The notes under the pieces are model-generated. The model saw only the letters and a list, made by a program, of their open reading frames with translations. It was not told the origin of the DNA and made no database searches. Positions 6,709-47,987 of a stretch of DNA of 64,000 nt are shown one piece after another. Position 1 is the stretch's first letter. Every line of letters starts with the position of its first letter. Made by a program: the position numbers and the translations under genes. The DNA comes from Bacilli bacterium (lineage in GTDB: Bacteria > Bacillota_I > Bacilli_A > RF39 > UBA660), in assembly GCA_041655535.1 (NCBI GenBank), contig JBBAFH010000003.1, positions 72,910 to 136,909 of the forward strand, given 5' to 3'.

Positions 6709-6736
6709 TTGGAAACTGATAAAGGAGGATTAATAT

Positions 6737-7442: not shown

Positions 7443-7982
7443 GTGAACCGCCTAAAAGAAAAATATAATAAAGAAATCATACCTAGTTTAATGGAAAAAT
7501 ATAATTATAAATCTGTTATGGAAGTACCAAAAATAGACAAAATAGTTGTTAATATTGGTGTTGGTGATGCATCTCATAACTCAAAAATGCTTGAAGGAGC
7601 ATTAAGGGATCTTGAAGCAATCACAGGACAAAAACCAGTTTCAACTAAAGCAAAAAAAGCGATAGCTGGATTTAAATTAAGAGAAGGTCAAGCAATTGGT
7701 TGCAAAGTAACTTTGAGAGGAAAAAATATGTATAACTTTTTAGATAAATTAATTAGCATTACATTACCTCGTGTTAGGGACTTTCGAGGAATTTCATCAA
7801 AAGCTTTTGATGGACGTGGAAACTATACATTAGGACTAACAGAACAATTAATTTTTTCGGAAATAGAATATGATAATGTTGTTAAAGTACGTGGTATGGA
7901 TATTGTTTTTGTAACAACTGCAAAAACAAATGAAGAATCGTACGATCTCTTAAAAGGCTTTGGTATGCCGTTTAAGAAGTAA
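7443..7982 (+). CDS. rplE: 50S ribosomal protein L5
   Basis: GTG start at 7443 gives (M)[23 protein letters not shown]..., matching L5 N-termini. GGAGG lies upstream. Confidence 0.85.
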
Positions 7983-28917: not shown

Positions 28918-29709
28918 CTAATCATTTTTGACTAGTCTTTTCTCAATATAGTAGACAATATAGTACATAATGGCTGAAACAAGCGAAAGGATAATTACAC
29001 CAGTTATTACTAAGTCTAAATTAAATACTTGAGAACCATACATTATTAAATACCCAATTCCTTTTTTCGATACTAAAAATTCTCCCATTATAATTCCGAT
29101 CAAAGACATACTAACATTTATTTTCAAAGCGCTGATAATGTTATTAAAACTACTTGGTAGAACAAGTTTGAAAAACGTTTGCCCTTTATTCGCACCAAGA
29201 GACTTCATTAATTTTACTTTTACTGGATCGGTTTCATTGAAACCTTGCAACACATTAATAATTGTAACAATTACTGATATAAGTAAAGCCATTACAATAA
29301 TTGAACCTGTTTTGGCCCCAATCCATATAATGATAATTGGTCCGAGTGCTACTTTTGGTAAACTATTTAATATTATAAGATAAGGTTCTAAAATTTTAGA
29401 AATAAATTTATTCCACCATAATGCTGCCGCAATAATTATTCCAATAAGGGTTCCAAGAGTAAAACTAACCACTGTTTCATAAACTGTTGTAAAAATATGT
29501 TGATATAAATCATTTGTTTGATGTAGTGTTATAAGCGTTTCAATAACTTTAGAAGGACTTGAAGAAACAAAAGTGTTAATGATTTTAAAATCAGCAAGTA
29601 ATTGCCAAATTCCAAAAAAAAGTATGGATAAAAGTATTTGAATAAACAGAATAATAATTTTTTCTTGTTTGATTTTTTTTAAGTATTTAATATGCTCTTT
29701 ACTATACAT
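28918..29709 (-). CDS. ABC transporter permease, NitT/TauT (SsuC/TauC-like) family
   Basis: 6 TM segments and a binding-protein-dependent transport EAA-like region. The ATG at 29709 overlaps the stop of the upstream ATPase C-fragment in the form ATGTATAG. Confidence 0.8.
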   Translation of the reverse strand: MYSKEHIKYLKKIKQEKIIILFIQILLSILFFGIWQLLADFKIINTFVSSSPSKVIETLITLHQTNDLYQHIFTTVYETVVSFTLGTLIGIIIAAALWWNKFISKILEPYLIILNSLPKVALGPIIIIWIGAKTGSIIVMALLISVIVTIINVLQGFNETDPVKVKLMKSLGANKGQTFFKLVLPSSFNNIISALKINVSMSLIGIIMGEFLVSKKGIGYLIMYGSQVFNLDLVITGVIILSLVSAIMYYIVYYIEKRLVKND

Positions 29710-29881
29710 GAAAATCAATTTCTTTCCATATTAAATCGTAGTAATACGCAAATTCTTTGGCTTTTCTGTTCTCGATAGGTGATGATTTATCTGTTAATTC
29801 TATATTATAAATACTTTTAATTGTTCCAGGCCTCTTTGTTAAAACAATAATTCGGTCTGCCATGCTTATGGCTTCACTCAT
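29702..29881 (-). pseudogene. C-terminal fragment of the NitT/TauT ABC ATPase gene split by the insertion
   Basis: MSEAISMADRIIVLTKRPGTIKSIYNIELTD...EIDFHV continues the H-loop region (VTHDIS|EAI...) of the ATPase whose N-terminal part is at 41858..42445. The ATG is created at the junction. Confidence 0.7.
29867..29881. repeat. left junction repeat (attL-like) TATGGCTTCACTCAT
   Basis: 13/15 identical to the right-end repeat. Contains the shared core CTTCACT (AGTGAAG on the gene strand). Confidence 0.55.
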
Positions 29882-30027
29882 AGGTACAATTAGTATGATA
29901 ATAAATTAACTTGACACATAAGCTTAATTAGGTGATGTTATGATAAAGTTAACAAAAGAACAACAGGTTAAAATTATTGCTTTTCTATTAAGGACTTCAA
30001 TTTCTAGGATGATTCAAAAGGATAATT

Positions 30028-31610: not shown

Positions 31611-34600
31611 ATGATAAGCGGTAATGAATTTAATAGGATAAGAAAACATTATAATAAATTAATTAAAATGATTAATAATCATTTTTTTGTAGGTATTGTT
31701 AATGAGTGGATAATTGATAATTATTATTTATTAGTTGAACAAAAAGATTCTATCAAAAAGTTTACTAAAGATAAAAAAGCATATAGTTATACTAGTAAAT
31801 ATTTAAATATGTATGATGTTTTTAAAACTATTTTGGAAAAGTATAATTATAAAATAGATGAAAACATTATTATAAAAGAAGTGATTGATTATCAGAAAAC
31901 GACTGGTTATAATTTAAAATATAAAGAACTATCTATTATACCTTTAGTTATCAAAGTTTTGTTGTTAAGAGAAGTATCGATAATTTGTGAAGAAGAATCA
32001 TCAAAATTAAATGATAAAAAAGAAGTAAAAAATATTATTAACAAATTAAAGAAAATGGTTTTAAATAACGAGGAAATAGATTTAGCAAAGTATATAAATT
32101 TAAATAAAATGTCTAGTTATGGTGTTGTTTACTTTAATGAGCAATTTAAAGAGTTGGGAGAATATTCTAATGTAGTTTTCAAACAATTTAATAGTTTGTT
32201 AGAAAACAACAATAAAGTAATGATTGATATTATAAACAAGGAACATTTAAAGAGTACCGAGTCTAACATAATTATTAATAATATATTTTTAAGTTTTAAA
32301 GAAACTAACATTTTTGTTATGGAAAATATTTACGAAAAAGTTAATGATGTCGAGAAGTTACTTCAAGAAGATAAATTATATTCTAAAATGACTCTTGAAA
32401 CAAAAACTTTAATTCGTCAACATTTACTTAAACGCGCAAGACAAGACAAAGTTACTGCCGATACTTTAGTAAAAGATATTTTAGATGATTATAATAATAT
32501 TAGTGATGGACTTTTAAAAAAGAAGGATTATGGTTTTCTGAAGGTTATATTTTATCTAGTAATTGTATTTGCAATAACCGCTATTTTAAGCTATTATTTA
32601 TCAGTTTTTTTAACCAGTTATAGGTTATTAGGTTTTTTAGCACTTCTGATTCCAATTAGCGAAATAGTAAATATTGTTGTTCAAAATATGTTTTTAAGAC
32701 TATTTAGAACAAAACCATTGGCAAAACTAGATTTTTCAAAAGGAATACCATCTAATCATAAAACGATGGTTGTTATTCCAACTATTGTTAAAACTGAAGA
32801 AAAAATTAAACAAGTTTTTACTAGCTTAGAAAAGTATTATTTAATCAATAAAACAAGTAATTTATATTTCACTTTATTAAGTGATGCTTTTGAAAATAAT
32901 GAAGAAAATCACCAAAATGATTCTACTATTATTTCTTCTGGTGTGGCTGAAGCCGAAAGATTAAACAAAATATATGGTAAAAATATTTTTCATTTTGTCT
33001 ATCGCCGTCGTATATATAATAAAGGTGAAGGGACATGGCTAGGTTTTGAACGGAAAAGAGGGGCATTGCTTCATTTTAATGACTTGCTATTAGGTAATAT
33101 GAATGAAGAAGAACAAAAAAAATATTTTAAAGTTCATACTTTCCATAATTTTCATCATAAGATTAAATATGTAATTACTTTAGACGTAGATACTGAATTG
33201 GTTTTAAATAGTGCTTTAAAACTAGCTGGAACCATGGCACATCCTTTAAATAGACCCATTTTAAACGAATCAAAGACCAAGGTTATTGCTGGATACGGTA
33301 TATTACAACCTAGAATTAGTTTAGAAGTTGAAGCTAGCAATAAATCATTGTTTTCACAAATATATGCAGGAATTGGGGGCTTTGATCCATACAGTAATCT
33401 TTACCCTAACTTTTATCAAGATGTTTTTAAAGAAGGAACTTTTTATGGAAAAGGAATATATGACTTAAAGGTTTATCAACAAGTCTTAAAAAAACGTTTC
33501 CCAAACAATTTGATATTAAGTCATGATTTAGTTGAAGGAAATTATCTTCGTGCCGGGAATGTTACTGATATTGATTTAATTGATGGTTTTCCATCTAAAT
33601 TTTTAGTAGATGCTTCTAGACGCTCAAGATGGGCGAGAGGAGATATGCAAGTAATTAGTTGGATTGGAAATAAAGTTAGAAATGAATCTGGAATCAAAGA
33701 AAAAAATCCAATTAGTTTATTAGGTAAGTGGAAAATCATTGATAACATCAGACGCGGATTGATTAATGTATTTTTATTAATAATCCTTTTTCTAGCACTT
33801 AATAGTAATATTGTGAATCCCAACTGGTGGTTATTGTTTGTTATTTTAATATATATTTTACCAATCATTATTCAAGTTATCGAAAATTTTGTGATTAGTC
33901 GTTCTAGTTTTAGTTCCTTGAAATATTATCGCATATTAGTATTTGGTTATAGAGCACTTATTCTAAGAGCGATAACTGAACTATCAATAATTCCTTACAA
34001 TGCTTACTTATATTTAAACTCTTTTGTTCGTTCAATATATCGAATGACTATTAGTAAGAAGCATTTACTTAATTGGGTTACAGCTGATGACGCTGCTAAA
34101 TTAGTTAAAACTAATTTAGGTAATACAATTAAACAATTTTGGATCAACACTTTTTTAGCAATCATTTTAATTGTTTGGGCTTTATATTCTAAAGAACATC
34201 AATTATTAAAACTTGTTCTATCATTTATTTTTATGCTAGGTCCTGTTATTACCTATTTAATTAGTAAAGATTTAGCACACGATAAAAATAAAATTGAAAA
34301 AGATGGTATTGAAACATTAAATAATTTAGCTAAGAGTACTTGGAGTTACTTTAGTGACAATTTAACTGAAGAAAACAATTATTTAATTCCTGATAATTAT
34401 CAAGAAAATAGAGATATAAAACCAGATATTAAAACGTCACCAACTAACATTGGACTTTCGTTAGTATCGGTTATTTCAGCATGCGAATTAAAATTAATAA
34501 ATACTGATGAAGCACTTCATTTGCTCGAAAAAATAATTACATCTATTAAAAAATTAGATAAGTGGCATGGTCATCTATATAATTGGTATGATATTAAAAC

Positions 34601-37600
34601 TTTAAAAGTTATGTATCCTCATTTTATTTCGAGTGTTGATAGCGGCAACTTTGTTGCTTCTTTAATGGTGGCCAAAGGATTTGTTGAAAAATATAATCGA
34701 CTAGAATTACTGAAAATGATTGAAAGATTAATAAATAAAACAGAATTTCAGTATTTATATACAGACACTGATGTATTTAGTGTTGGATATCATGTTGACC
34801 AAGGTCGATTAGAACCATTTAATTATAATAAATTTATGAGCGAAAGCCGCATTTTAAGTTATTTAGCAATCGCTAAAGGTGACGTTCCTAGTAAGCATTG
34901 GTTTGGTCTTGATAAAACGTTAATAGCTTATAAAAATAAAAAAGGTTTATCATCATGGTCTGGTACTTTCTTTGAATATTATATGCCACTTCTATTTATG
35001 CCAAGTTATGCTAATACGATAATTGATGAGGCTTATCATTTTGCATACTATGTTCAAAGTGATTATATGAAAAAGTATAACAAAAATTATCCGTGGGGAA
35101 TTTCAGAATCCGCTTATAATGATCTAGATGATGCTCAAAACTATAAATATAAAGCATTTGGTATTCCACAGTTAAGGCTTCGGGAGGAAGCAAGTGAAAG
35201 AGTTGTTATATCTCCATATAGTTCCCTTCTAGCCTTACCTCTATTTCCAAAAGAAGTTATTAAAAATATTGAAAAATTTAAACCACTTAATATGTTTGGT
35301 AAATATGGATTATATGAATCATATGATTGTTTAGATGAATCACCAGTTGTATCATATTACGCCCATCATCAAGCAATGATTTTAGGAAGTCTTACAAACT
35401 TTTTAACAGATGGTGTTATTCAATCATATTTTTACAAAGATATTCGTAATCAAGCTGTTGATATGTTAATAAAAGAAAAGGTTCAATTAAGACCACACAT
35501 TAATTATGAGACAATGAGGTATAAGAAATATACATATGAGAAAGAATCTTTTGTTAATGATATTAGAGTTTATAATCAAATATCAAAACTACCTGAGTTG
35601 TCGGTTTTATCAAATTCAAAGTATAGTGTTATTATTAATGATCGAGGGAATGGATATAGTAAATATTATCAAATTAGATTAAATAGATATCGTAAGGTTA
35701 CTGAAAGGGATTATGGACAATTTTTATATATTAAAGATTTACAAACTAAAAAGGTTTGGTCAAACACATATGCCCCAATTAATGTAAAACCGAAAAAATA
35801 TGAAATAGTATATGCTTTAGATAATATAAAATTTGTTAGAGCAGATAAAGATGTTATTACTACTACTGAAATAGTGGTGACAAAATCACACAATGCTGAA
35901 ATAAGAAGAATCACTTTTAAAAATAATGGAAACAAAGATAAAGAGTTGGAATTAACAACTTATACAGAACCTATTTTAGGTCTTAATTCTGATGATATTG
36001 GTCATCCAGTATTTAACAATATGTTTGTCTATAGTGAATACGACAAAAAAACCAATTCTATTATTATGAAAAGGAAATTAAGAAATTCTGATACAAATTA
36101 TTACATGATAAGCCGATTATTTATAGAAGATCCAATTGGTTCCTTTGAGTATGAAACAAATCGTGATAATTTTATCGGTAGAGGTCGTAATACTAATAAT
36201 CCAAAATCAATTCATGAAAAACTTCGTAACTATGTTGGAACTACACTTGATCCAATCATTAGTTTAAGAAATAAAATTTTAGTACCTAAAAATAGTGAAA
36301 AAACAGTTTATTTAATCACTGGTTTTGGAAGATCACGAGAACATGTTTTAAACATTGTTAGAACCTATTGTAATAAACAAGTTATCAATGAAAAAGGGTT
36401 TGAAACGGCTATTATTATGAGTAATGCAAGCAATAAAATGGTTAATATGAGTAGCGATGACCGTCGTTTATATAATACAATGCTTAATTATCTATTACAG
36501 ACAAATTATATTGTTGTAAGCGACGAAATATTTGATAATTTAACTAAAAACACGTTAAATCAAACAAATTTATGGGGCTTTGGAATTTCTGGTGACAGAC
36601 CAATAATATTATTAGACTTAAAAGATTTAAGTGATTTGAGTTTGGTTAAAGAATTATTGCATGCTTTTGAATATTACAAAAGCAAAGCAATTTTCATTGA
36701 TTTGGTTATAATTAATAGTGAAAACGAACAATACGCTAAAGTTATAGCAAAAGAAATAGAAAACGAAAAATATCATATGTATGCTATTAATAACTTCTTC
36801 AATACGCCTGGTTCAATTTTTGTTTTAGATAGAAACAAAATTAGTGAAGAGGATTATATTTTATTAAAAACGGTTGCTAGACTAAAAATTGATAGTAATC
36901 TTCATAATTCACTGCAATACTATATTAATGAACTTCAAAAATTAAACACAGTGAAAACTAAGCATAATGAAAATGAAGTTCCAAGTTTACCGATTAAGTA
37001 TGACAAAAACAAAATAAAATTCTTTAATGAATTTGGTGGTTTTATTAATAATGGTAAAGAATATTTAATAGTTGACCCAAATACTCCTTCAGCTTGGAGT
37101 AATGTCATTTCTAATAAAAACTTTGGAACAGTTATTACTAATAATAACTGTGGGTTCACTTATGCCGTAAACAGTAGAGAGTACAAATTAACGTCTTGGA
37201 CTAATGATGCTTTAGTTAATGATTATTCAGAAGGGTTTAAAATTAATGATATGAAAATCAATTTCAGTCATGTTAAATTTGGATTCGGTTATAGTGAGTA
37301 TATAGGAAACTTTAAACGAGTCGATCTTAATTTAATTCAATTTGTAGCAAAGGAAGATAACGTTAAATTTTATAAGATGAAACTAAAAAACAATTCTGCT
37401 CGTAAACAAAGAATTATTTTGAAGTTTTGGATAAACCCTAATCTTGGGTTTACTGAAGAAAAAACAGGACGTTATTTACTAAGTGAATTTAATGAAAAGA
37501 ATAATTATTTAAGTATCAGAAATGTTTATAGTCAAAAGTTTAATCATTTATATGCATATATGTCTAGTACTGAAAAAATAAACAACGCTATACTCAATAA

Positions 37601-39275
37601 TTTGTTAGTTAAAGAAATTGAAGTTGATTTCTATCTAGATGAAAAGGAAGAAAAAGAATTGGTCTTTACTTTAGGTAGTTCCACTAAAGATAATTTAGAT
37701 ACACTTGTCACGAAATATAATGATATTGCAAAAGTTAATGAAGAATTATCTAATATCAAAAATCATTGGGACGATATATTAACTACTGTTCAAATAAAAA
37801 CACCTGATGAAAGTTTTGATTATATATTAAATGGTTGGGCTTTATATCAAAGTATTGCTTCTAGATTACAAGCACGTGCAGGATTTTATCAAGTTGGTGG
37901 TGCATATGGATTTCGTGATCAATTACAAGATTCAATGAATGTATGCAGTATTGATCCTAGTATTACAAGGAATCAAATATTATTTAATGCTGCTCACCAA
38001 TTTAAAGAAGGAGATGTTCTTCATTGGTGGCACCCTAAATTAGATATTGGCTTGCGTTCATTATATAAGGATGATTATTTGTGGTTAATCTACGCAATTA
38101 GTGAGTATCTAAAAATTACTGAAGATTTTAGTATTTTAGATGAACAAGTACCATTTATTACAGGATTCGCACTTGAACCACACGAACATGAAAAGCTAAT
38201 TAATTACAAAGTTGGCGAAGAAACGTCTAGTATTTATGATCGTTGTATATTAATAATAAATAAAGCAATGAATGAACTAGGTCAAAATGGTTTACCCCTT
38301 ATGGGTGGTGGTGACTGGAACGATGGGATGAATAAGATAGGTATTGAAGGAAAAGGAACCAGTGTTTGGCTAGGATTTTTCTTGTACCAATTAATTAATG
38401 AATTCATGGCATTTGTTGATAAATATGATGCTAATATTGATTTAAGCATTTATAATGATTTTAACAAAGAACTAAAAGAATCTTTAAGAAATGTTGCGTG
38501 GGATGGTAAGTATTATTTAAGAGCTTTCTTTGATAATGGTCAACCAGTAGGATCAAATACTAATGAAGAATGCACAATAGATTTATTATCACAAAGTTTC
38601 GCCATATTATCTGGTGTAGCCGATTCTAAACAAATTGATACAATGATTGAGTCAGTAGAAACTAAGTTAGTTGATAATGATTTAAAAATTATTAAACTTT
38701 TGACACCAGCATTCTCTAAAAACAAAAATAATCCAGGATATATTATGGATTATCCTAAAGGAATTAGAGAAAATGGTGGTCAATATACTCATGCTGTCGC
38801 TTGGTACATTCAAGCCCTACTAAAAATAGGAAAGAATGATTTAGCATTCGATCACTATCAAATGATGAATCCAATTAATCGCACTAAAACTAAGGAAGAT
38901 GCATTGAAATATAAAGTTGAACCATATGTTTTTGTAGCGGATATCTATAGTAACGAAAATTTTGCTGGTCAAGGTGGATGGAGTTGGTATACCGGAACTA
39001 GTGGTTGGTTTTACAATGTCGCCCTTACAGATATTATTGGATTTAATTTAAGAGGTGACAAATTATATGTCACTCCTAATGTTCCGATTAAATGGAATGA
39101 CTTTGAAATAACTTATCGTTATCAAGACACGGTTTATAAAATAAAAGTTATGCTAAAAGAACCTAAAGACGAGATTATAATTGATAATAAAGTTACCTAT
39201 TATAATTATATAGAGTTAATAAATGATAAGAAAATACACACAGTTTTAGTAAAGAAAGGAGAGCAAAATGATTAA
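31611..39275 (+). CDS. giant multidomain glucan synthase, cyclic beta-1,2-glucan synthase (Cgs/NdvB/ChvB)-like: N-terminal region + GT-A glycosyltransferase + TM segments + C-terminal GH94-type phosphorylase domain
   Basis: 2554 aa. GT-A signatures ITLDVDTE (DxD) and RRSRWARGD (QxxRW-like), with multiple TM helices on either side. C-terminal region carries GGAYGFRDQLQDSMN, GGGDWNDGMN and WSWYTGTSGW, typical of GH94 (cellobiose/chitobiose phosphorylase-like) catalytic domains. RBS GGTGGTGGTGA. Confidence 0.7.
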   Translation: MISGNEFNRIRKHYNKLIKMINNHFFVGIVNEWIIDNYYLLVEQKDSIKKFTKDKKAYSYTSKYLNMYDVFKTILEKYNYKIDENIIIKEVIDYQKTTGYNLKYKELSIIPLVIKVLLLREVSIICEEESSKLNDKKEVKNIINKLKKMVLNNEEIDLAKYINLNKMSSYGVVYFNEQFKELGEYSNVVFKQFNSLLENNNKVMIDIINKEHLKSTESNIIINNIFLSFKETNIFVMENIYEKVNDVEKLLQEDKLYSKMTLETKTLIRQHLLKRARQDKVTADTLVKDILDDYNNISDGLLKKKDYGFLKVIFYLVIVFAITAILSYYLSVFLTSYRLLGFLALLIPISEIVNIVVQNMFLRLFRTKPLAKLDFSKGIPSNHKTMVVIPTIVKTEEKIKQVFTSLEKYYLINKTSNLYFTLLSDAFENNEENHQNDSTIISSGVAEAERLNKIYGKNIFHFVYRRRIYNKGEGTWLGFERKRGALLHFNDLLLGNMNEEEQKKYFKVHTFHNFHHKIKYVITLDVDTELVLNSALKLAGTMAHPLNRPILNESKTKVIAGYGILQPRISLEVEASNKSLFSQIYAGIGGFDPYSNLYPNFYQDVFKEGTFYGKGIYDLKVYQQVLKKRFPNNLILSHDLVEGNYLRAGNVTDIDLIDGFPSKFLVDASRRSRWARGDMQVISWIGNKVRNESGIKEKNPISLLGKWKIIDNIRRGLINVFLLIILFLALNSNIVNPNWWLLFVILIYILPIIIQVIENFVISRSSFSSLKYYRILVFGYRALILRAITELSIIPYNAYLYLNSFVRSIYRMTISKKHLLNWVTADDAAKLVKTNLGNTIKQFWINTFLAIILIVWALYSKEHQLLKLVLSFIFMLGPVITYLISKDLAHDKNKIEKDGIETLNNLAKSTWSYFSDNLTEENNYLIPDNYQENRDIKPDIKTSPTNIGLSLVSVISACELKLINTDEALHLLEKIITSIKKLDKWHGHLYNWYDIKTLKVMYPHFISSVDSGNFVASLMVAKGFVEKYNRLELLKMIERLINKTEFQYLYTDTDVFSVGYHVDQGRLEPFNYNKFMSESRILSYLAIAKGDVPSKHWFGLDKTLIAYKNKKGLSSWSGTFFEYYMPLLFMPSYANTIIDEAYHFAYYVQSDYMKKYNKNYPWGISESAYNDLDDAQNYKYKAFGIPQLRLREEASERVVISPYSSLLALPLFPKEVIKNIEKFKPLNMFGKYGLYESYDCLDESPVVSYYAHHQAMILGSLTNFLTDGVIQSYFYKDIRNQAVDMLIKEKVQLRPHINYETMRYKKYTYEKESFVNDIRVYNQISKLPELSVLSNSKYSVIINDRGNGYSKYYQIRLNRYRKVTERDYGQFLYIKDLQTKKVWSNTYAPINVKPKKYEIVYALDNIKFVRADKDVITTTEIVVTKSHNAEIRRITFKNNGNKDKELELTTYTEPILGLNSDDIGHPVFNNMFVYSEYDKKTNSIIMKRKLRNSDTNYYMISRLFIEDPIGSFEYETNRDNFIGRGRNTNNPKSIHEKLRNYVGTTLDPIISLRNKILVPKNSEKTVYLITGFGRSREHVLNIVRTYCNKQVINEKGFETAIIMSNASNKMVNMSSDDRRLYNTMLNYLLQTNYIVVSDEIFDNLTKNTLNQTNLWGFGISGDRPIILLDLKDLSDLSLVKELLHAFEYYKSKAIFIDLVIINSENEQYAKVIAKEIENEKYHMYAINNFFNTPGSIFVLDRNKISEEDYILLKTVARLKIDSNLHNSLQYYINELQKLNTVKTKHNENEVPSLPIKYDKNKIKFFNEFGGFINNGKEYLIVDPNTPSAWSNVISNKNFGTVITNNNCGFTYAVNSREYKLTSWTNDALVNDYSEGFKINDMKINFSHVKFGFGYSEYIGNFKRVDLNLIQFVAKEDNVKFYKMKLKNNSARKQRIILKFWINPNLGFTEEKTGRYLLSEFNEKNNYLSIRNVYSQKFNHLYAYMSSTEKINNAILNNLLVKEIEVDFYLDEKEEKELVFTLGSSTKDNLDTLVTKYNDIAKVNEELSNIKNHWDDILTTVQIKTPDESFDYILNGWALYQSIASRLQARAGFYQVGGAYGFRDQLQDSMNVCSIDPSITRNQILFNAAHQFKEGDVLHWWHPKLDIGLRSLYKDDYLWLIYAISEYLKITEDFSILDEQVPFITGFALEPHEHEKLINYKVGEETSSIYDRCILIINKAMNELGQNGLPLMGGGDWNDGMNKIGIEGKGTSVWLGFFLYQLINEFMAFVDKYDANIDLSIYNDFNKELKESLRNVAWDGKYYLRAFFDNGQPVGSNTNEECTIDLLSQSFAILSGVADSKQIDTMIESVETKLVDNDLKIIKLLTPAFSKNKNNPGYIMDYPKGIRENGGQYTHAVAWYIQALLKIGKNDLAFDHYQMMNPINRTKTKEDALKYKVEPYVFVADIYSNENFAGQGGWSWYTGTSGWFYNVALTDIIGFNLRGDKLYVTPNVPIKWNDFEITYRYQDTVYKIKVMLKEPKDEIIIDNKVTYYNYIELINDKKIHTVLVKKGEQND

Positions 39276-41857: not shown

Positions 41858-42445
41858 TTAGTATATGCCTTCACTTATATCATGGGTGACCATTATGACA
41901 CTTTTTTTTTCTTTTTTGATAATTTTATAAACATCATCTGATACTGCTAACCTCGTTTGATAATCAAGTGCTGAAAAAGGTTCATCTAACAAAAGAATAT
42001 CTGGTTTCGTGGCCAGCGTTCTAATTAGAGCCGCTCTTTGTCGCATCCCCCCGGATAAACTACTAGGATAATTATCCACAAAATCACCGAGGCCATAAGT
42101 ATTTAGTAACTTTATTACGTAATCAGTATTTTCTTTTGTTAATTCATTTTTGATTTCTAAACCAATTAAACAGTTATTTAAAATTGTTCGCCAATTAAAC
42201 AAATTATCTTGTTGTAGCATGTACCCAATTGTAGAATTTTCATTAAAATTAACTGTTCCTTCTGATATTTTTTCTAAACCACATAAAATTGATAGAATAG
42301 TCGACTTTCCGCATCCACTTGGGCCAACAATGGCCACAAACTCCCCTTCATACAAATTAAAAGAAAAGTTATCAACAGCTAATATTTCACCTTGTTTAGT
42401 ATGATAAATTTTCTTTAAGTTTTCAATATTTAATATTTTATTCAT
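41858..42445 (-). pseudogene. N-terminal fragment (195 aa) of the NitT/TauT-type ABC transporter ATP-binding protein, truncated by the insertion
   Basis: Walker A GPSGCGKST, signature LSGGMRQR, Walker B LLLDEPFSALD, H-loop VTHDIS, then an abrupt ...EGIY stop at the element boundary. The remainder is found at 29702..29881. Confidence 0.75.
41864..41878. repeat. right junction repeat (attR-like) TATGCCTTCACTTAT
   Basis: Direct repeat of the 29867-29881 sequence. Lies immediately adjacent to the truncated ATPase N-fragment stop. Confidence 0.55.
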
Positions 42446-43436
42446 TATTATTTTCTACGGAAAAACTTACATCAACTAATTTGTTATATGGAGCTTTTTT
42501 ATTTAATTCTCCTGCAGATTCCATTATTGTTTGAACATGTTCAAAATCTTTTTTTTCAATTTTTGTGGTTTTATACCATGAATCAATACTCTTATATCTG
42601 TCTACCACTTTAGTAACATCATTAATTGATGTGTCTGGAAAATAATCAATTATGTTTTTAGCAATATCTTCTGATTTATTGTTATGAACATAATTTAACC
42701 CTTTTTGAATTGCTCTTGTAAAGCCTTCAATTAATTCTTTGTTGTCATCTATATAACTTTTTTTCGCACTATATGTTGTATACGGAACAACACCACCGAG
42801 TTCACCAACCGATGCAACAACATGACCATATCCTTGTTTTTCTATTTGAAGTGCTAAAGGTTCAAATAGAGTAACATAATCCCCATTACCACCAATAAAT
42901 GATCCTGCCATAGCAGCAAAAGCAATACTTGTATCGATGTTAACATCTTTTTTAGGATTAATGCCATTAGTCTTAAGTGCCCATTCGAATGTCATTTCTG
43001 GCATTCCACCTTTTCGACCACCTATAACATTCATTCCTCTCATGTCACTAAGTTTAAAATTATCAATTTTTTTTCTAGAAACTATGAAACTACCATCTCT
43101 TTTAGTTAAACCCGAAAAATTAATTAGATAATCTTCTTCACCTTCATTATAAATATAAATTGATGCTTCACTTCCACAAAACCCAATATTAACATCTCCA
43201 GATAAAACAGCAGCAGCTACTTTATCGGCACCAGGTACTAACATTAATTCGACATCTAATCCCTCATCTTCAAAATAACCTAAAGAATGTGCAATATATT
43301 GTGGGGCGTAAAAAATACTGTGAGTAACTTCTGCAACTTTTACTTTCGTTAAATCTTTATTTTTGTCTTTGAAAGCAAATAAGGTCCCTAATGCTATTAG
43401 TAAAACAATAAAAATCGATATAATAATTTTTTTCAA
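42438..43436 (-). CDS. ABC transporter substrate-binding protein, NMT1/THI5-like (NitT/TauT family)
   Basis: 332 aa, N-terminal signal/anchor. 8-nt overlap with the ATPase start, so it is the first gene of the SBP-ATPase-permease operon. Confidence 0.7.
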   Translation of the reverse strand: MKKIIISIFIVLLIALGTLFAFKDKNKDLTKVKVAEVTHSIFYAPQYIAHSLGYFEDEGLDVELMLVPGADKVAAAVLSGDVNIGFCGSEASIYIYNEGEEDYLINFSGLTKRDGSFIVSRKKIDNFKLSDMRGMNVIGGRKGGMPEMTFEWALKTNGINPKKDVNIDTSIAFAAMAGSFIGGNGDYVTLFEPLALQIEKQGYGHVVASVGELGGVVPYTTYSAKKSYIDDNKELIEGFTRAIQKGLNYVHNNKSEDIAKNIIDYFPDTSINDVTKVVDRYKSIDSWYKTTKIEKKDFEHVQTIMESAGELNKKAPYNKLVDVSFSVENNNE

Positions 43437-43589
43437 AACAAATTCCTCCTTTTATTTCATTGTTATTATATTCATTATGTTTTTAGGAGTGACATTATAA
43501 AGCGGATATAAAATATGATTATAATGATTACTTTACTTTTTTTGAATTAAATGTTATTATAACGTCATAAATAATTGGGGGGTGTGCCT

Positions 43590-44264
43590 ATGGCTGACTA
43601 TCAATTTGGGAAACAACTAAATATTCTTGAAGTAATGAAAAACAAGTCATATTATGCAAAAGTTTTTTCAGAAGGAAGCGCAGAGTTAGAAAAACTATTG
43701 TTAAATTTATGGAAAAAAAACATAGAGACTTTTATGTGTTGTACTGGTCACGAAATAGATGACGCTGCTTATATTATGATGTACTTACCAACTACCAATA
43801 AAGAAATGATGTATACTATTATTGATGCCGTTTATAATGAAGATCAAACATATATAATTGTTGGAAAAGAACATGATAGAGAAGATATCTTGATTGATAT
43901 TAAGTCTTATTGTGGTAGTAAATTTTTTGAAAATATTAATAGAAGTTTAGAACAGTCAGTAGTTCTTAATAAAATTGATAGTAACATTTCTAATATGATT
44001 GAAATTTTAAGTGAATTTAATTATAAAACATTTGATTTATATTATGAAATTTTTAATATTAGAAATCAAAAAAGATTAGATATATATGCTAATTATTGTA
44101 AAGATAATGGTGATGGATTAACACGTCATCTTCACGTATTAAGAAAAACATCAATTTTGAACGATAAAATTTTTGAAACAAATGCTTTTTCCAAAGATGA
44201 ATTTGAAAGTAAAATAAATGATATAAATAATCGAGGTCATCAAAAAACACATTTTAAAAGATAG
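43590..44264 (+). CDS. hypothetical protein (first gene of the Fic cassette)
   Basis: 224 aa from ATG 43590, with GGGGGTG 5 nt upstream. No recognisable motifs. Confidence 0.5.
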   Translation: MADYQFGKQLNILEVMKNKSYYAKVFSEGSAELEKLLLNLWKKNIETFMCCTGHEIDDAAYIMMYLPTTNKEMMYTIIDAVYNEDQTYIIVGKEHDREDILIDIKSYCGSKFFENINRSLEQSVVLNKIDSNISNMIEILSEFNYKTFDLYYEIFNIRNQKRLDIYANYCKDNGDGLTRHLHVLRKTSILNDKIFETNAFSKDEFESKINDINNRGHQKTHFKR

Positions 44265-44296
44265 TGGTCATGTTATAATAATGTAGAGGTGATTAT

Positions 44297-44500
44297 ATGT
44301 CAGAAAAAGATATTGACAAAGCTATTAATGAATCAGTTGCAAATGTCGAAACAGAAGATACTTATCATAATGAAGAAGAAATAAAAGAGATAAAAGAATC
44401 AATAATGAGAAACAAAACATCTTATAGCTTTCTAAAAAGATTGGTTGACCTTCATAGAGCGAAACATAAGGAAGATTATAATGATAAACGATCACGATAA
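44297..44500 (+). CDS. small acidic/basic protein overlapping the Fic gene start (candidate Fic partner/antitoxin)
   Basis: 67 aa. RBS AGAGGTG. The 3' end overlaps the Fic start by 20 nt, a typical toxin-antitoxin arrangement. Confidence 0.45.
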   Translation: MSEKDIDKAINESVANVETEDTYHNEEEIKEIKESIMRNKTSYSFLKRLVDLHRAKHKEDYNDKRSR

Positions 44501-45152
44501 GTGGGATAAAGTTATTAACTTTGAATCTCTGTATTGCTATCCTGGAACTGATATATTAATTAATAAGCTGGGTATAAAAGATAAACAACTATTAGAAAAT
44601 GTTGATCGGGGATTTTCTACTTTTAAATTGTCTAAAGTATATTTAAGAAAATTTACTGGTAATTTCGATTTAGAGCATTATTTAAGTATTCATAGATATG
44701 TATTTGAAGATTTATACTATTTTGCTGGTGAAATAAGAAACGAGAATATTCAAAAAAGTGGAATTCCTTTTTGTCGCCCAGAGTTTGTTGGGCAATATTT
44801 AGAATATACCCTTTTACAAATGAAAAAGGATTTGAGAAAAGTAGTTGATGAAAATTCGTTACTTGATTATCTTGCTTACTATTATGGCGAAATAGACATT
44901 ATTCACCCTTTTAGAGAGGGAAATGGACGTGTTCAAAGGGAGTTCTTTAGACAATATATGGAATATGTTAATTCTAAATTAAATATACCAAACTATACTT
45001 TTGAGTATAGCAAGTGGACCAAAGAAGATAAAAAACATCTTATTGAAGGATGTGTGGCAAGCGCGAAAACTGGTGATAAAAGTATATTAAAGCAAGTTTT
45101 AGCAAAATCTCTTGTACAGGTCGATGAAAAAGAACATAGAAAAACAAGATAA
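44481..45152 (+). CDS. Fic family protein (putative AMP/NMP-transferase)
   Basis: Canonical Fic motif HPFREGNGRVQREF. ATG 44481 with AAGGAAG 6 nt upstream. C-terminal KHLIEG resembles a degenerate inhibitory-helix motif. Confidence 0.75.
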   Translation: MINDHDKWDKVINFESLYCYPGTDILINKLGIKDKQLLENVDRGFSTFKLSKVYLRKFTGNFDLEHYLSIHRYVFEDLYYFAGEIRNENIQKSGIPFCRPEFVGQYLEYTLLQMKKDLRKVVDENSLLDYLAYYYGEIDIIHPFREGNGRVQREFFRQYMEYVNSKLNIPNYTFEYSKWTKEDKKHLIEGCVASAKTGDKSILKQVLAKSLVQVDEKEHRKTR

Positions 45153-45165
45153 TGGTGGTGGTTTA

Positions 45166-45864
45166 ATGGTTGATAATATCGAAATTTATAAAGCAATACT
45201 TGAGTATGAAAAAGAATTTTTGGATAACGGATATAATGGTGATTTAACTAAAACAACCTCCTTTACTTATATAAAAGGAACAATTCCCATCCTTTTGTCG
45301 GCACCCCATTCTGTTCAAAATTTTCGGAATGGCAAATATAAAAGTGCCGAATTGTTAACTGGTGGTTTAGTTAAAATCCTTCACCAATTAACTGGATGTC
45401 ACATTATATATAAGAACAAAAATGATGGATATGATTTTAATTATGATAAAAAAGGAACTGCAAATGATTATAAAAACAAAATTATTAACATTATTGATAA
45501 GGAACAAATAAAATTATTTTTTGATATTCATGGCATGAGTGAAGATAAATTTTTAGATATTGATTTAGGAACTGATTTTGACAATAATCTAAATAATTAT
45601 AATTCTATGCCTATGATTATAAAAACAATTTTTGAAAAGCAAGAAATAAGAAATATTGGGTTTGATCAAATTTTCACTGCAAAAGGAACTAGAACAATTA
45701 CAAAAAACACATCATTAAAAACAAAAATTCCATCTGTTCAAATGGAAATTAATAAATTATATAGGGATGTTGAAAACCCTGAGAATATTATTAAATTAAT
45801 AAATGCCTTGGAGAATATTGTGACCCATTTTAAAGACAAAAATATGTCGCAAAAGGACTTATAA
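45166..45864 (+). CDS. hypothetical protein, possible zinc amidohydrolase-like fold (LLSAPHS...E / DIHGMS)
   Basis: 232 aa from ATG 45166 with GGTGGTGG upstream. The motifs are only suggestive. Confidence 0.4.
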   Translation: MVDNIEIYKAILEYEKEFLDNGYNGDLTKTTSFTYIKGTIPILLSAPHSVQNFRNGKYKSAELLTGGLVKILHQLTGCHIIYKNKNDGYDFNYDKKGTANDYKNKIINIIDKEQIKLFFDIHGMSEDKFLDIDLGTDFDNNLNNYNSMPMIIKTIFEKQEIRNIGFDQIFTAKGTRTITKNTSLKTKIPSVQMEINKLYRDVENPENIIKLINALENIVTHFKDKNMSQKDL

Positions 45865-45902
45865 TGTAAGTCTTTTTATGTTATGATTAAATAGGTGGTA
45901 AA

Positions 45903-47987
45903 ATGAAGCTAGATAATTTAAATCCTCAACAACTTGAAGCAGTAATGACCACAGAAGGACCATTATTGGTACTAGCTGGTGCAGGTAGTGGTAAAACAAA
46001 AGTTTTAACAACACGTATTGCGTATTTAATAACCGTGAAGAATGTTCATCCTGGATCTATTTTAGCTATTACGTTTACAAATAAAGCGGCTAAAGAAATG
46101 AAGAATCGTGTTATAAATATTTTAGGACCTATGGCTCTTGACATTCAAATATCAACTTTTCACTCTTTTGGATTATTAATTGTAAAAGAACATTGTGAAA
46201 AATTGAACTATAAAAGAAACTTTACTATTTTAGATAGTTCCGATTCATTAACGATGATTAAAAAGGTGATGAAAGAATTAAATCTAGACCCTAAAGTTTA
46301 TAATCCTAAAGCAATTAAAAATATTATTAGTAGCAATAAAAACGAGCTAATTGATGCCGAGGGGTACAGTAAATTTGTTCATACCGACTTTGATGAAAAA
46401 GTTTTAGAAATATTTAGAAGATACGAAAGAAGATTATTTGAAGGTAATTCATTAGACTTTGATGATTTATTAATGTTGCCTTTAATATTATTTAGAAAAT
46501 ATCCTGATATTTTAAAAGAATATCAAGAAAGATATAAATATATTCTTATTGATGAATATCAAGACACTAACGAAGCACAGTATTTATTGACTAAATTAAT
46601 AAGTGCAAAATATCAAAACATTTGTGTTGTTGGTGATGAATCACAATCTATCTATTCTTTCAGAGGGGCAAACTTTAGAAATATTTTGAATTTTGAAAAA
46701 GATTATAAAGAACCTAAAGTAATATTACTAGAAAGGAATTATCGCTCAACTAAATATATTTTGAATGTAGCTAATGACATTATTAAAAATAATAGTCAGA
46801 GGAAAGATAAAAATTTATGGACTGATAATAATGCCGGATCAAAAGTTGTATATCATCAATCATTCAGTGAAAAAGACGAAGCATCATTTGTTGTTGAACA
46901 AGCTACCGAATTAATCAATGAAGGAATTAGCGGAGGAGATATTGCAGTTTTATATAGAACTAACGCCCAGTCAAGAAATTTGGAAGAAGCTTTCTTAAAA
47001 GTTCGCATTCCTTATAAAGTAGTTGGAAGTGTTTATTTTTATAATCGTAAAGAAATTAAAGATTTAATTGCCTATTTAAAAGTTATATATAATGAATCTG
47101 ATAACATTAATTTTTTAAGAGTTATTAATGTTCCAAAAAGAGGAATTGGAGATAAGACTATCGAGAGATTATCTAATAAAGCAATTGATGAAGAAACTTC
47201 TTTATATGGTGCAATTGACAGTGGTAAAGAATTAGAATTCAAAAAAATTATTGAGGATATAAAACTTAAAACTGAGAGTATGACTCTAACTGAATTAGTT
47301 GATTATGTTTTAGATAGAAGTGGGATGAGGCAGGAACTAATCAATGAAAAAACTATAGAATCAGAGATTAGATTAGAGAATCTTGAGGAATTCAAAACAA
47401 TTACTAAAGAATTTGAAGAAAGAAATGGTATAATATCATTAGAAGAATTTTTATATGAGATAAGTTTAGTAGCAGATGTTGAAGAATATAAGAATAATAA
47501 AGATGCAGTAACTTTAATGACTATTCATTCAGCCAAAGGATTAGAATTTGATTATGTCTTTATTGTTGGGCTTGAAGAAAGTATTTTCCCACATAGTAAT
47601 TCAAGTGATAGTTTAGATGAGATCGAAGAAGAACGTCGCTTATGTTATGTTGCTATTACTCGTGCGAAAGAAAAATTATGGCTAATAAATTCAAAGAGAA
47701 GAACAATCTATGGATTAACTAATCAAAATTTACCTAGTCGCTTTATTAGTGAAATAGATGAAGAAAATTTAGAGGTTGATGATTATAACCAACATTTTTC
47801 AACTAATGATTTTAGTAATTATATTGATAAGACTGCAGAATATAAAATAGGCGATAGTGTCATGCACGATGTTTTTGGTAAAGGACTTATTGTTGGTATT
47901 GATAGAGAAATATTAACGATTGCTTTTTCAAGACAATACGGTCTTAAAAAATTAATGAAAGGTCATAAAAGTATAAAGAAAGGATGA
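45903..47987 (+). CDS. pcrA: ATP-dependent DNA helicase PcrA/UvrD family
   Basis: Walker A AGAGSGKT, UvrD-helicase motifs, 694 aa. Confidence 0.85.
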   Translation: MKLDNLNPQQLEAVMTTEGPLLVLAGAGSGKTKVLTTRIAYLITVKNVHPGSILAITFTNKAAKEMKNRVINILGPMALDIQISTFHSFGLLIVKEHCEKLNYKRNFTILDSSDSLTMIKKVMKELNLDPKVYNPKAIKNIISSNKNELIDAEGYSKFVHTDFDEKVLEIFRRYERRLFEGNSLDFDDLLMLPLILFRKYPDILKEYQERYKYILIDEYQDTNEAQYLLTKLISAKYQNICVVGDESQSIYSFRGANFRNILNFEKDYKEPKVILLERNYRSTKYILNVANDIIKNNSQRKDKNLWTDNNAGSKVVYHQSFSEKDEASFVVEQATELINEGISGGDIAVLYRTNAQSRNLEEAFLKVRIPYKVVGSVYFYNRKEIKDLIAYLKVIYNESDNINFLRVINVPKRGIGDKTIERLSNKAIDEETSLYGAIDSGKELEFKKIIEDIKLKTESMTLTELVDYVLDRSGMRQELINEKTIESEIRLENLEEFKTITKEFEERNGIISLEEFLYEISLVADVEEYKNNKDAVTLMTIHSAKGLEFDYVFIVGLEESIFPHSNSSDSLDEIEEERRLCYVAITRAKEKLWLINSKRRTIYGLTNQNLPSRFISEIDEENLEVDDYNQHFSTNDFSNYIDKTAEYKIGDSVMHDVFGKGLIVGIDREILTIAFSRQYGLKKLMKGHKSIKKG

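What the first reader, a model, noticed from the sequence alone, without database searches (positions are those of the whole stretch)
43575..45878. Four-gene accessory cassette built around a Fic (HPFREGNGR) protein with an overlapping small upstream ORF
The compact co-directional block 43590..44264 (224 aa, unknown), 44297..44500 (67 aa), 44481..45152 (Fic, canonical HPFREGNGRVQREF) and 45166..45864 (232 aa, LLSAPHS/DIHGMS motifs) sits between the transporter operon and pcrA. It has its own RBSs and a terminator-like hairpin at 45849-45878. The 67-aa ORF overlaps the Fic start by 20 nt, as toxin-antitoxin pairs do, but lacks the classical [ST]xxxE[GN] inhibitory motif. The Fic protein itself carries KHLIEG near its C-terminus, a possible degenerate internal inhibitory helix. 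The flanking unknown proteins suggest a larger Fic-associated module of unknown role, possibly defence or stress.
Basis: partly seen in the sequence, partly recalled or inferred. Interest (0 to 1): 0.6.

Follow-up and report, generated by a model that had tools for sequence, protein, structure and literature searches.

The report
Fic toxin–antitoxin pair plus two unrelated neighbours
The block is not a four-gene system: its core is an ordinary two-gene Fic toxin–antitoxin pair whose small antitoxin has a slightly altered inhibitory motif, and the two flanking genes come and go independently in related genomes.

Summary
All four ORFs, the 20-nt overlap, the HPFREGNGRVQR motif and the hairpin are real. 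The four genes are not a unit.

At the same site (NMT1-type ABC transporter to pcrA) in related uncultured Bacilli I found A-B-Fic-D, A-B-Fic, B-Fic-D, B-Fic, and A alone. B and Fic are never apart. D relatives also occur far from any Fic. About 70 more distant Fic loci have neither A nor D.

The 67-aa ORF B is a divergent VbhA/FicA-type antitoxin. A graded series of upstream ORFs links the canonical A[ST]xxxE[GN] to B's A-N16-V-E-T-E20-D21. Glu20 is the only invariant column. hhalign gives 78% probability (E 1.8e-5) in that register.

Fic is a class I FicT-type toxin. Its best solved relatives are Fic-1/AntF, VbhT and EcFicT.

KHLIEG is the local form of a common core helix ("EELLEAS") in Fic proteins that have separate antitoxins. 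It is not an inhibitory helix.

D is an FGase/PghP-like metallo-amidohydrolase (pLDDT 91; top hit 2odf). A belongs to an unnamed family, with at most a weak TYW3-like resemblance.

Verdict: a new, divergent member of the known FicTA kind. Interest is low.

The parts
44297..44500 (+). Gene B: 67-aa FicA/VbhA-type antitoxin (divergent)
   Evidence: It lies immediately upstream of and overlaps Fic in every related locus. hhalign against 24 canonical upstream antitoxins gives 56% probability, or 78% with intermediates added (E 1.8e-5), in the same register both times. There is no hit in Pfam, NCBIfam or PDB by plain HMM.
44342..44359 (+). Codons for N16-V-E-T-E20-D21, the variant of the [S/T]xxxE[G/N] inhibitory motif; E20 is the predicted inhibitory glutamate
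   Evidence: E20 is the only invariant column across B and canonical antitoxins. The graded series runs ATMSMEG / SSNGLEN / SNVKVEN / GNNKIEG / ATNKIED / ANVEVEG / ANVETEN / ANVETED.
44481..45152 (+). Fic: 223-aa class I FicT-type AMP-transferase toxin
   Evidence: Pfam Fic scores 5.5e-16. NCBIfam VbhT scores 1.5e-28 and E. coli Fic 2.9e-27, both below the equivalog cut-offs. The best PDB relatives are 8wt0 (Fic-1/AntF), VbhT 3shg and EcFicT 5jff. PADLOC PDC-S04 scores 1.4e-52.
44904..44939 (+). Codons for the Fic active-site motif HPFREGNGRVQR (H142...R153)
   Evidence: It matches HxFx(D/E)GNGRxxR completely. The motif residues H, F, E, G, N and R150 are invariant in 81 relatives; G149 and R153 are in 80 of 81.
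45033..45050 (+). Codons for KHLIEG (Fic 185-190): part of a core C-terminal helix, not an inhibitory helix
   Evidence: In 81 relatives, column 189 is E in 30 (otherwise K, A, P, N, R), column 190 is A in 59, and column 185 is E/D/A/Q/K. It aligns to 'ERMSEVSIAAA' of a Bep FIC domain. It is D in L002. Five xxxxE[GN] strings occur in this protein alone.
44271..44279 (+). TGTTATAAT, an extended -10-like element 17 nt upstream of the B start (inferred promoter of the B-Fic unit)
   Evidence: TGnTATAAT lies 17-24 nt upstream of the B start in 7 of 9 related loci, plus TGaTAAAAT in L024; only L006 lacks a clear one. Two of these loci have no A upstream. The window holds 17 such sites in 128 kb of both strands. 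Function is not shown.
45851..45877 (+). Hairpin plus T-run spanning the stop codon of D; likely intrinsic terminator in front of pcrA
   Evidence: One search gives -13.4 kcal/mol and z -2.6. It is conserved upstream of pcrA in L019, L002 (which has no D) and L006. L006 has a second copy between Fic and D.
43590..44264 (+). Gene A: 224-aa protein of an unnamed family; neighbour, not part of the pair
   Evidence: It is present without Fic in L004, L099 and L103, and absent from the B-Fic loci L006, L015, L022 and L023. Terminator-like hairpins separate A from B in L002 and L101. The family has 384 representatives and no Pfam match.
45166..45864 (+). Gene D: 232-aa FGase/PghP-like metallo-amidohydrolase; neighbour, probably co-transcribed here, not required by the pair
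   Evidence: The model has pLDDT 91.4. Foldseek hits are 2odf at 4e-7 and the phage PghP 3a9l at 1e-5. Nine of 16 family members hit Pfam FGase. The SAPH, DxN, DxH and QxE columns are invariant or nearly so. D is absent from L002, L022, L023, L028 and L029, and stands alone in L010-14 and L104-108.

Best explanation
The functional unit is the two-gene pair B-Fic (44297-45152). It is a chromosomal class I Fic toxin-antitoxin module of the FicTA/VbhTA type.

**How it most likely works**
- Fic is an AMP-transferase with a complete HxFxEGNGRxxR site.
- The 67-aa B protein binds Fic and inserts the end of its first helix into the ATP site.
- There Glu20 salt-bridges the last Arg of the motif (R153), and Asn16 takes the place of the usual Ser/Thr. 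ATP then cannot bind productively.
- When B is lost or titrated, Fic AMPylates a cellular target and arrests growth. By analogy with VbhT, YeFicT and Fic-1, that target is GyrB/ParE.
- The overlap of the two genes couples their translation.
- A TGnTATAAT element just upstream of B probably drives the pair.

**The neighbours**
- A (an unnamed family) and D (an FGase-like amidohydrolase) share this variable intergenic site between the NMT1-type transporter and pcrA.
- They are gained or lost independently of the pair.

**Shown versus inferred**
- Shown: family assignment, motif alignment, co-occurrence pattern.
- Inferred: binding geometry, toxicity, target, promoter.
For: - **Fic family.** Pfam Fic and NCBIfam VbhT and EcFic match. 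The top solved relatives are all class I toxins crystallised with separate antitoxins: 8wt0, 3shg, 5jff (8WT0 identity from PMC13327609).
- **Fic motif.** It is complete and conserved.
- **B as antitoxin by context.** B-like ORFs precede and overlap Fic in all relatives (4-23 nt overlap).
- **The comparison set is canonical.** Of 24 upstream ORFs of more distant Fic relatives, 12 hit Pfam VbhA and 3 hit YhfG.
- **B as antitoxin by sequence.** The B-family profile aligns to this set over 52-53 residues, with E20 on the invariant Glu. Probability is 56% (E 1.1e-4), rising to 78% (E 1.8e-5) with intermediates. E20 is the only invariant column.
- **Synteny.** Five architectures occur at one site, and B-Fic is always together.
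- **A and D elsewhere.** They are absent from about 70 distant Fic loci. D is found alone elsewhere. A is found alone next to pcrA.
- **Transcription signals.** A is separated from B by a terminator-like hairpin in L002 and L101, and a conserved -10-like element lies in front of B.
- **Mechanism from the literature.** The role of S/T and E of the motif against R2 is from PMC5033356. The gyrase/topo IV target is from PMC8401265 and PMC13327609.
Against: - B does not reach significance against Pfam VbhA/YhfG or any PDB chain by HMMER.
- The profile-profile probability is moderate (56-78%).
- B lacks the strict motif: Asn replaces Ser/Thr and Asp replaces Gly/Asn.
- No complex structure could be predicted with the tools allowed, so the Glu20-R153 contact is inferred.
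- Fic falls below the NCBIfam equivalog cut-offs, so the target cannot be transferred with confidence.
- The pair is vertically inherited at a fixed site, as EcFicTA is. For EcFicTA no toxicity or AMPylation has been shown (PMC5033356).
- D lies 12-13 nt after Fic in three of four D-bearing lineages, so a functional tie of D to the pair is not excluded.
Confidence: 0.8

Rival explanations
1. B-Fic-D is a three-gene operon. In this reading the FGase-like amidohydrolase D is a working partner of the Fic pair, for example acting on the same target or on a nucleotide or peptide product.
For: - D follows Fic by 12-13 nt in the window, L019 and L015. B-Fic-D is kept in four diverged lineages (Fic 57-89% identical).
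- D diverges in step with its neighbours, which suggests vertical co-inheritance.
- The hairpin terminator comes only after D.
Against: - D is missing from the orthologous B-Fic loci L002/L020, L022, L023, L028 and L029.
- In L006 a copy of the terminator-like hairpin separates Fic from D.
- D relatives at 30-50% identity sit next to a Mur ligase, a Tn916-type integrase, ABC-F, or M23 peptidase genes, never next to Fic.
- No D turns up near about 70 other Fic loci.
Confidence: 0.1
2. One reading: A, B, Fic and D form one four-gene accessory (defence or stress) module.
For: - The four genes are co-directional and tightly spaced (32-nt and 13-nt gaps, one 20-nt overlap), and no hairpin lies between A and B in the window.
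- The same four genes occur in a second genome, L019.
- Fic matches the PADLOC defence candidate PDC-S04.
Against: - L019 is a close relative (pcrA 95% identical), so this is not independent evidence.
- All sub-combinations occur at the same site in other relatives.
- A is separated from B by a terminator-like hairpin plus promoter-like element in L002 and L101.
- A, B and D have no hit in PADLOC.
Confidence: 0.04
3. Fic is self-inhibited by an internal degenerate helix (KHLIEG, class III-like), and B is not its inhibitor.
For: KHLIEG matches xxxxEG near the C-terminus. Gly190 is invariant and Glu189 is kept in three of four close orthologues.
Against: - The equivalent helix reads 'EELLEAS' or 'EEMLEAS' in many relatives that carry canonical separate antitoxins.
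- Glu is present in only 30 of 81 relatives, and the S/T position is E/D/A/Q/K.
- L002 has Asp at this position.
- The segment aligns to a core helix of Bep FIC domains.
- The string type is frequent by chance, with five in this protein.
- From memory, not tested: the class III helix lies about 80 residues after the catalytic His, against 47 here.
Confidence: 0.03
4. B-Fic is not a growth-arresting toxin-antitoxin system. It is instead a housekeeping regulator pair, a reversible AMPylase/deAMPylase of a DNA-metabolism protein, fixed next to pcrA-ligA.
For: - The pair sits at the same site directly upstream of pcrA across relatives, down to 38-49% Fic identity.
- This resembles the vertically inherited EcFicTA (PMC5033356).
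- The Fic-1-AntF complex acts as a deAMPylase through the antitoxin Glu (PMC13327609).
Against: - Nothing here tests activity.
- The catalytic motif is fully canonical, unlike EcFicT.
- Adjacency to pcrA is seen only in this lineage and may be simple synteny.
Confidence: 0.15

Closest known systems
VbhT/VbhA of Bartonella schoenbuchensis (class I FicTA; PDB 3SHG)
   Same: - A small upstream antitoxin gene overlaps a Fic toxin gene.
- The HxFxEGNGRxxR motif is canonical.
- The Fic profile hits VbhT at 2e-25 and NCBIfam VbhT at 1.5e-28.
- The antitoxin is a two-helix protein with the inhibitory Glu at the end of helix 1, by alignment.
   Different: - VbhT has a C-terminal BID secretion domain and is plasmid-borne; this protein is a bare 223-aa FIC domain on a chromosome.
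- B has N-x-x-x-E-D in place of S-x-x-x-E-G.
- B lacks the second conserved 'LEG(K)xS' segment seen in many VbhA-like proteins.
- B is not detected by the Pfam VbhA model.
Fic-1/AntF of Pseudomonas bijieensis 2P24 (PDB 8WT0)
   Same: - It is the best solved sequence relative of the Fic profile (1.5e-26).
- It is a stand-alone FicT of about 200 aa with a separate small antitoxin.
- Its toxin AMPylates GyrB, and the antitoxin Glu is the key residue (PMC13327609).
   Different: - The match covers only residues 15-160.
- No activity data exist for this protein.
- Whether the B-Fic complex has deAMPylase activity is unknown.
EcFicT/EcFicA (E. coli Fic/YhfG; PDB 5JFF)
   Same: - Both are chromosomal pairs inherited vertically at a fixed site (PMC5033356).
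- NCBIfam PRK10347 matches over residues 10-214, E 2.9e-27.
   Different: EcFicT has a degenerate motif (Leu for R1) and no demonstrated AMPylation. This Fic keeps R150 and the whole motif.
SoFic anti-phage defence protein
   Same: Both have a FIC domain, and SoFic is an AMPylating toxin used in abortive infection (PMC12249575).
   Different: - There is only a marginal PADLOC hit, restricted to the motif region (1.7e-4).
- SoFic is about 360 aa with extra domains.
- Its antitoxin AS1 is encoded downstream, not upstream.
N-formylglutamate amidohydrolase family (PF05013; Atu2144, PDB 2ODF) and phage poly-gamma-glutamate hydrolase PghP (3A9L), for gene D
   Same: They are the fold-level best hits. 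Nine of 16 family members hit PF05013. The His/Asp/Glu columns are conserved.
   Different: - The window protein itself scores below the Pfam cut-off (E 0.067).
- Identity to 2odf is 11-12%.
- The substrate is unknown.

Membership tests
Class I Fic toxin-antitoxin module (FicTA / VbhTA type) | Toxin has a FIC domain with the adenylylation-competent motif HxFx(D/E)GNGRxxR | tested here: met
   HPFREGNGRVQR is at residues 142-153. Pfam Fic scores 5.5e-16. The motif is conserved in relatives.
Class I Fic toxin-antitoxin module (FicTA / VbhTA type) | No intramolecular inhibitory helix with [S/T]xxxE[G/N] in the Fic protein itself (that would make it class II or III) | tested here: met
   The Fic protein has no strict motif. 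The near-matches KQLLEN and KHLIEG are not conserved as E, and they align to core helices shared with relatives that have separate antitoxins.
Class I Fic toxin-antitoxin module (FicTA / VbhTA type) | Small gene immediately upstream, co-directional, usually overlapping, encoding the inhibitor | tested here: met
   The overlap is 20 nt here and 4-23 nt in all orthologous loci. B and Fic are never found apart.
Class I Fic toxin-antitoxin module (FicTA / VbhTA type) | Antitoxin carries the [S/T]xxxE[G/N] inhibition motif with an invariant Glu | tested here: inconclusive
   The strict motif is absent. The homologous position reads N16-V-E-T-E20-D21, and the Glu is invariant. Orthologues read NxxxEN, NxxxEG and TxxxED. 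The Glu criterion is met; the flanking residues are not.
Class I Fic toxin-antitoxin module (FicTA / VbhTA type) | Antitoxin is homologous to VbhA/YhfG-type proteins | tested here: inconclusive
   hhalign gives 56% and 78% probability, E 1.1e-4 and 1.8e-5, in the same register. Pfam VbhA/YhfG and PDB give no hit by HMMER.
Class I Fic toxin-antitoxin module (FicTA / VbhTA type) | Toxin arrests growth and antitoxin neutralises it by direct binding; target GyrB/ParE AMPylation | not testable with these tools
   This needs expression and biochemical assays. Prediction of the complex structure was not possible under the tool restrictions.
   Only L019 (pcrA 95% identical) has all four genes. Other relatives have A-B-Fic, B-Fic-D, B-Fic or A alone. 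About 70 distant Fic loci lack A and D.
N-formylglutamate amidohydrolase superfamily (gene D) | FGase-type fold with conserved metal or catalytic His/Asp/Glu residues | tested here: met
   The model has pLDDT 91.4. Foldseek finds 2odf at 4e-7 and PghP at 1e-5. S45-A-P-H48, N92, D120 and H122 are invariant; D90, Q192 and E194 are nearly invariant. Nine of 16 members hit PF05013. The window protein alone is below the cut-off.
TYW3/Taw3-like fold (gene A) | Signature (S/T)xSSCxGR plus N-terminal Asp and a downstream His (PMC5311493) | tested here: not met
   [not shown]

The most novel reading that the evidence does not exclude
The pair represents a lineage-fixed FicTA variant. Its antitoxin uses an Asn-x-x-x-Glu-(Asp/Asn/Gly/Tyr) helix end instead of [S/T]xxxE[G/N]. 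It has been kept directly upstream of pcrA-ligA across an uncultured Bacilli family. In this reading it acts as a reversible AMPylation/deAMPylation switch on a DNA-topology or repair protein rather than as a selfish toxin. The FGase-like hydrolase D would be an optional third component.
Probability: 0.08. Interest if true: 0.55.

Novelty: new member of a known kind. Interest (0 to 1): 0.2.

Why it matters
- **Annotation.** The finding shows how a class I Fic antitoxin can escape both motif-based ([S/T]xxxE[G/N]) and HMM-based annotation while keeping the inhibitory glutamate. It gives a small set of intermediate sequences that bridge to the canonical family, which is useful for improving VbhA/FicA models.
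- **Method.** Tight, co-directional spacing in one genome is poor evidence for a multi-gene system. Presence/absence at the syntenic site resolved the question here.
- **Scope.** Beyond that, this is an ordinary chromosomal toxin-antitoxin pair.

Tried and rejected
- **B against libraries.** Plain HMM searches of B against Pfam, NCBIfam, PADLOC, PHROGs and PDB gave only noise. Intermediates also miss Pfam VbhA. Only profile-profile comparison and context worked.
- **SKFFEN in A.** The strict motif [ST]xxxE[GN] occurs once, in protein A (SKFFEN, residues 110-115). I rejected it as chance because it is not conserved even among 80%-identical orthologues.
- **KQLLEN in Fic.** I considered KQLLEN (Fic 35-40) as a class II-like N-terminal motif. 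I rejected it because E39 is Asn in L015 and N40 is Asp in the three other close orthologues.
- **Apparent cross-phylum transfer.** The L023 contig is labelled Ignavibacteriales. I rejected horizontal transfer of B-Fic because the contig has the same NMT1-B-Fic-pcrA-galU-ligA synteny, so it is probably mis-binned.
- **ncRNA.** Rfam at a permissive threshold found no RNA family in 43000-46200.
- **Foreign origin.** Base composition gives no sign of recent foreign origin: genes are 24-29% G+C against 28.9% for the window.
- **Fold of A.** Foldseek against PDB found nothing. The afdb50 library was unavailable. Sequence profiles of A and D against PDB found nothing.
- **Metagenome scan.** A narrower alignment returned 5 loci.
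- **Complex prediction.** This was not attempted.
- **pcrA promoter.** A TGnTATGAT string sits 15 nt before the pcrA start. I do not claim it as a promoter because it is too close to the start codon.
Full report
**Observation**

The four + strand ORFs are as described:
- A, 43590-44264, 224 aa
- B, 44297-44500, 67 aa
- Fic, 44481-45152, 223 aa
- D, 45166-45864, 232 aa

They lie between a divergent NMT1-type ABC transporter and pcrA. An independent public contig carries identical gene calls. B and Fic overlap by 20 nt. Each start has a Shine-Dalgarno-like run.

The hairpin at 45851-45877 folds at -13.4 kcal/mol, z = -2.6. A consensus scan that demands three G-C pairs finds no terminator.

The source is an uncultured low-G+C 'Bacilli bacterium' MAG. 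The cassette has the same base composition as its surroundings. No Rfam family lies in the region.

**What the proteins are**

*Fic.* It matches Pfam Fic (5.5e-16). Over nearly its whole length it matches the NCBIfam models for VbhT (1.5e-28) and E. coli Fic (2.9e-27), both far below the equivalog cut-offs. A profile of four orthologues finds as best solved relatives 8wt0, VbhT (3shg, 3zc7) and EcFicT (5jff).
- All of these are class I Fic toxins crystallised with a separate small antitoxin.
- 8WT0 is the GyrB-AMPylating Fic-1/AntF complex (PMC13327609).
- The motif HPFREGNGRVQR is complete and conserved.

*A, B and D.* None has a significant family hit, and all three have few close relatives: 5, 4 and 16 clusters.

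**Is the four-gene block a unit?**

I collected the orthologous site from relatives and scored it by tblastn. Between the transporter (or an inserted GerA operon) and pcrA the gene content is as follows.

| Loci | Gene content |
|---|---|
| window, L019 | A-B-Fic-D |
| L002/L020, L101 | A-B-Fic |
| L006-9, L015-17/L021 | B-Fic-D |
| L022, L023, L028 | B-Fic |
| L029 | Fic-pcrA with no D (contig starts inside Fic) |
| L099, L103 | A only, next to pcrA |
| L004/5 | A only, next to an IS remnant |

- B and Fic are never separated, while A and D each vary independently.
- D relatives at 30-50% identity stand beside ABC-F/NosD genes, unknown genes, a Mur ligase plus an SLH/transglutaminase protein, a Tn916-type integrase, or glycosyltransferase/YchF/M23 genes. 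They never stand beside Fic.
- None of about 70 more distant Fic loci has A or D within 5 kb.
- In L002 and L101 a terminator-like hairpin with a T-run follows A.
- A TGnTATAAT element lies 17-24 nt before the B start in 7 of 9 loci, with TGaTAAAAT in L024. The window has 17 such sites in 128 kb of both strands.

I conclude that the unit is B-Fic. A and D are neighbours at a variable site.

**Is B an antitoxin?**

The B family keeps a strongly conserved N-terminus, MSEKDIDKAINESVANVETE. It has no strict [S/T]xxxE[G/N].

I extracted the ORF immediately upstream of Fic in all 80 related loci.
- Most carry the canonical motif (ATMSMEG, ASLRLEG, ASVRMEG).
- Of 24 that I aligned, 12 hit Pfam VbhA and 3 hit YhfG.
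- As Fic identity to the window rises, the upstream ORFs form a graded series: SSNGLEN (L026), SNVKVEN (L028), GNNKIEG (L025), ATNKIED (L024), SNTDIEY and ANIDLEY (L022, L023), ANVDIEN (L015), ANVEVEG (L101), ANVETEN (L002, L006), ANVETED (window).
- In joint alignments E20 is the only invariant column apart from the start Met.
- hhalign of the B family against the canonical set aligns residues 6-58 with E20 on the invariant Glu, at 56% probability and E 1.1e-4. With the intermediates added it reaches 78% and E 1.8e-5 in the same register.

In EcFicA the motif Ser and Glu respectively hydrogen-bond and salt-bridge R2 of the Fic motif (PMC5033356). Asn16 can plausibly replace the Ser, and Asp/Asn/Gly at position 21 can end the helix; both points are inference.

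The conclusion to draw is 'variant motif', not 'no inhibitory helix'.

**KHLIEG**

- In an alignment of 81 Fic relatives, the column of E189 is Glu in 30 and K/A/P/N/R in others. G190 is Ala in 59. K185, the S/T position, is E/D/A/Q/K.
- The typical reading is 'EELLEAS', found in proteins that have canonical separate antitoxins.
- L002, a 70%-identical orthologue, has Asp.
- The segment aligns to 'ERMSEVSIAAA' in a Bep FIC domain, which is a core helix.
- Five xxxxE[GN] strings occur in this protein alone.

KHLIEG is therefore a chance resemblance.

**D**

- The AlphaFold model is confident (pLDDT 91.4, pTM 0.90).
- Its best matches are Atu2144 (2odf, an FGase-family structure; 4e-7) and the phage poly-gamma-glutamate hydrolase PghP (1e-5). 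M14-like carboxypeptidases and Amidase_3 enzymes follow.
- Nine of 16 family members hit Pfam FGase (best 1.4e-6).
- S45-A-P-H48, N92, D120 and H122 are invariant; D90, Q192 and E194 are nearly invariant.
- There is no signal peptide.
- D is most likely a cytoplasmic metal-dependent amidohydrolase acting on a formyl- or gamma-glutamyl-type amide. Its substrate is unknown.

**A**

- The model is fairly confident (pLDDT 84.6).
- A profile search finds 384 representative relatives, none with a Pfam domain.
- The conserved E28...T47xxCCxGH54 recalls the TYW3 signature D25...(S/T)xSSCxGR at the same offset (PMC5311493). The Arg and both Ser positions differ, so this is only a lead.

**The hairpin**

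- GACTTATAAT(G/T)TAAGTC followed by TTTTTATGTTAT is conserved directly upstream of pcrA in the window, L019, L006 and also L002, which lacks D.
- L006 has a second copy between Fic and D.
- The hairpin therefore belongs to the site, as the terminator of whatever precedes pcrA, rather than to the 'cassette'.
- The duplicated copies offer a simple route for loss of D by recombination (inference).

**Mechanism and comparison**

- The best-supported reading is a class I FicTA module. B blocks the ATP site of Fic through Glu20. Free Fic would AMPylate a cellular target, by analogy GyrB/ParE (PMC8401265; PMC13327609).
- Fixation of the pair at one chromosomal site across relatives down to 38-49% Fic identity resembles EcFicTA (PMC5033356). 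This leaves room for a regulatory rather than selfish role.
- A defence role is suggested only by similarity to the PADLOC candidate PDC-S04.
- Toxicity, target, binding geometry and promoter use are all inferred.

**Verdict**

This is a new, divergent member of a known kind, and interest is low.

Noticed in passing
window 28918-29902 and 41867-42445 (- strand): The ATPase gene of the NMT1-type ABC transporter is split. Residues 1-193 lie at 42445-41867. Residues 183-249 lie at 29902-29702, followed by the permease at 29709-28918. The giant GH94 gene, PGI and PGM lie in between. In L002 the operon is intact and sits next to the same genes. This is either a rearrangement or an assembly artefact. 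The truncated ATPase is also on an independent contig.
   Followed up: partly
window 31611-39275 (+): This is a 2554-aa ORF with Glycoamylase/GH94 domains (the cyclic beta-1,2-glucan synthase/phosphorylase type). It is followed by PGI and a phosphoglucomutase, and the arrangement is conserved in relatives.
   Followed up: no
[not shown]
   Followed up: partly
window 45851-45887; L002 ~7700-7735; L006 ~5950-5990 and 6715-6765: The hairpin plus the TTTTTATGTTAT(G/C)ATTA leader is conserved upstream of pcrA whether or not D is present. L006 has a duplicated copy between Fic and D, which may be the recombination substrate for loss of D.
   Followed up: partly
L020, L021, L024 (labelled Muribaculaceae); L023 (labelled Ignavibacteriales): L020, L021 and L023 share the Bacilli synteny NMT1 transporter-B-Fic-pcrA(-galU)-ligA, with 57-83% protein identity to the window. 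L024 has only the B-Fic pair. The taxonomic labels of these MAG contigs are probably wrong.
   Followed up: partly
L102 3003-6217: A truncated A-like ORF (117 aa) sits among a HicB-like gene and a RelE/Phd-like pair, in what appears to be a toxin-antitoxin-rich accessory island.
   Followed up: no
L105 175-2703; L104 316-3770: D-family genes occur at the edge of a Tn916-type integrase/excisionase element. They also occur next to a Mur-ligase-like gene and an SLH/transglutaminase protein, which hints at a peptide or cell-envelope substrate for this amidohydrolase family.
   Followed up: no
L106-L108 5001-5702: The look-up tool reports that the called gene for D homologue P0023 does not translate to the query under table 11. 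The contig may use an alternative genetic code.
   Followed up: no
L004 7051-7880: Downstream of the lone A gene lie a transposase-like remnant and a DpnII-family fragment. This suggests that the B-Fic region was replaced or destroyed by a mobile element in this genome.
   Followed up: no
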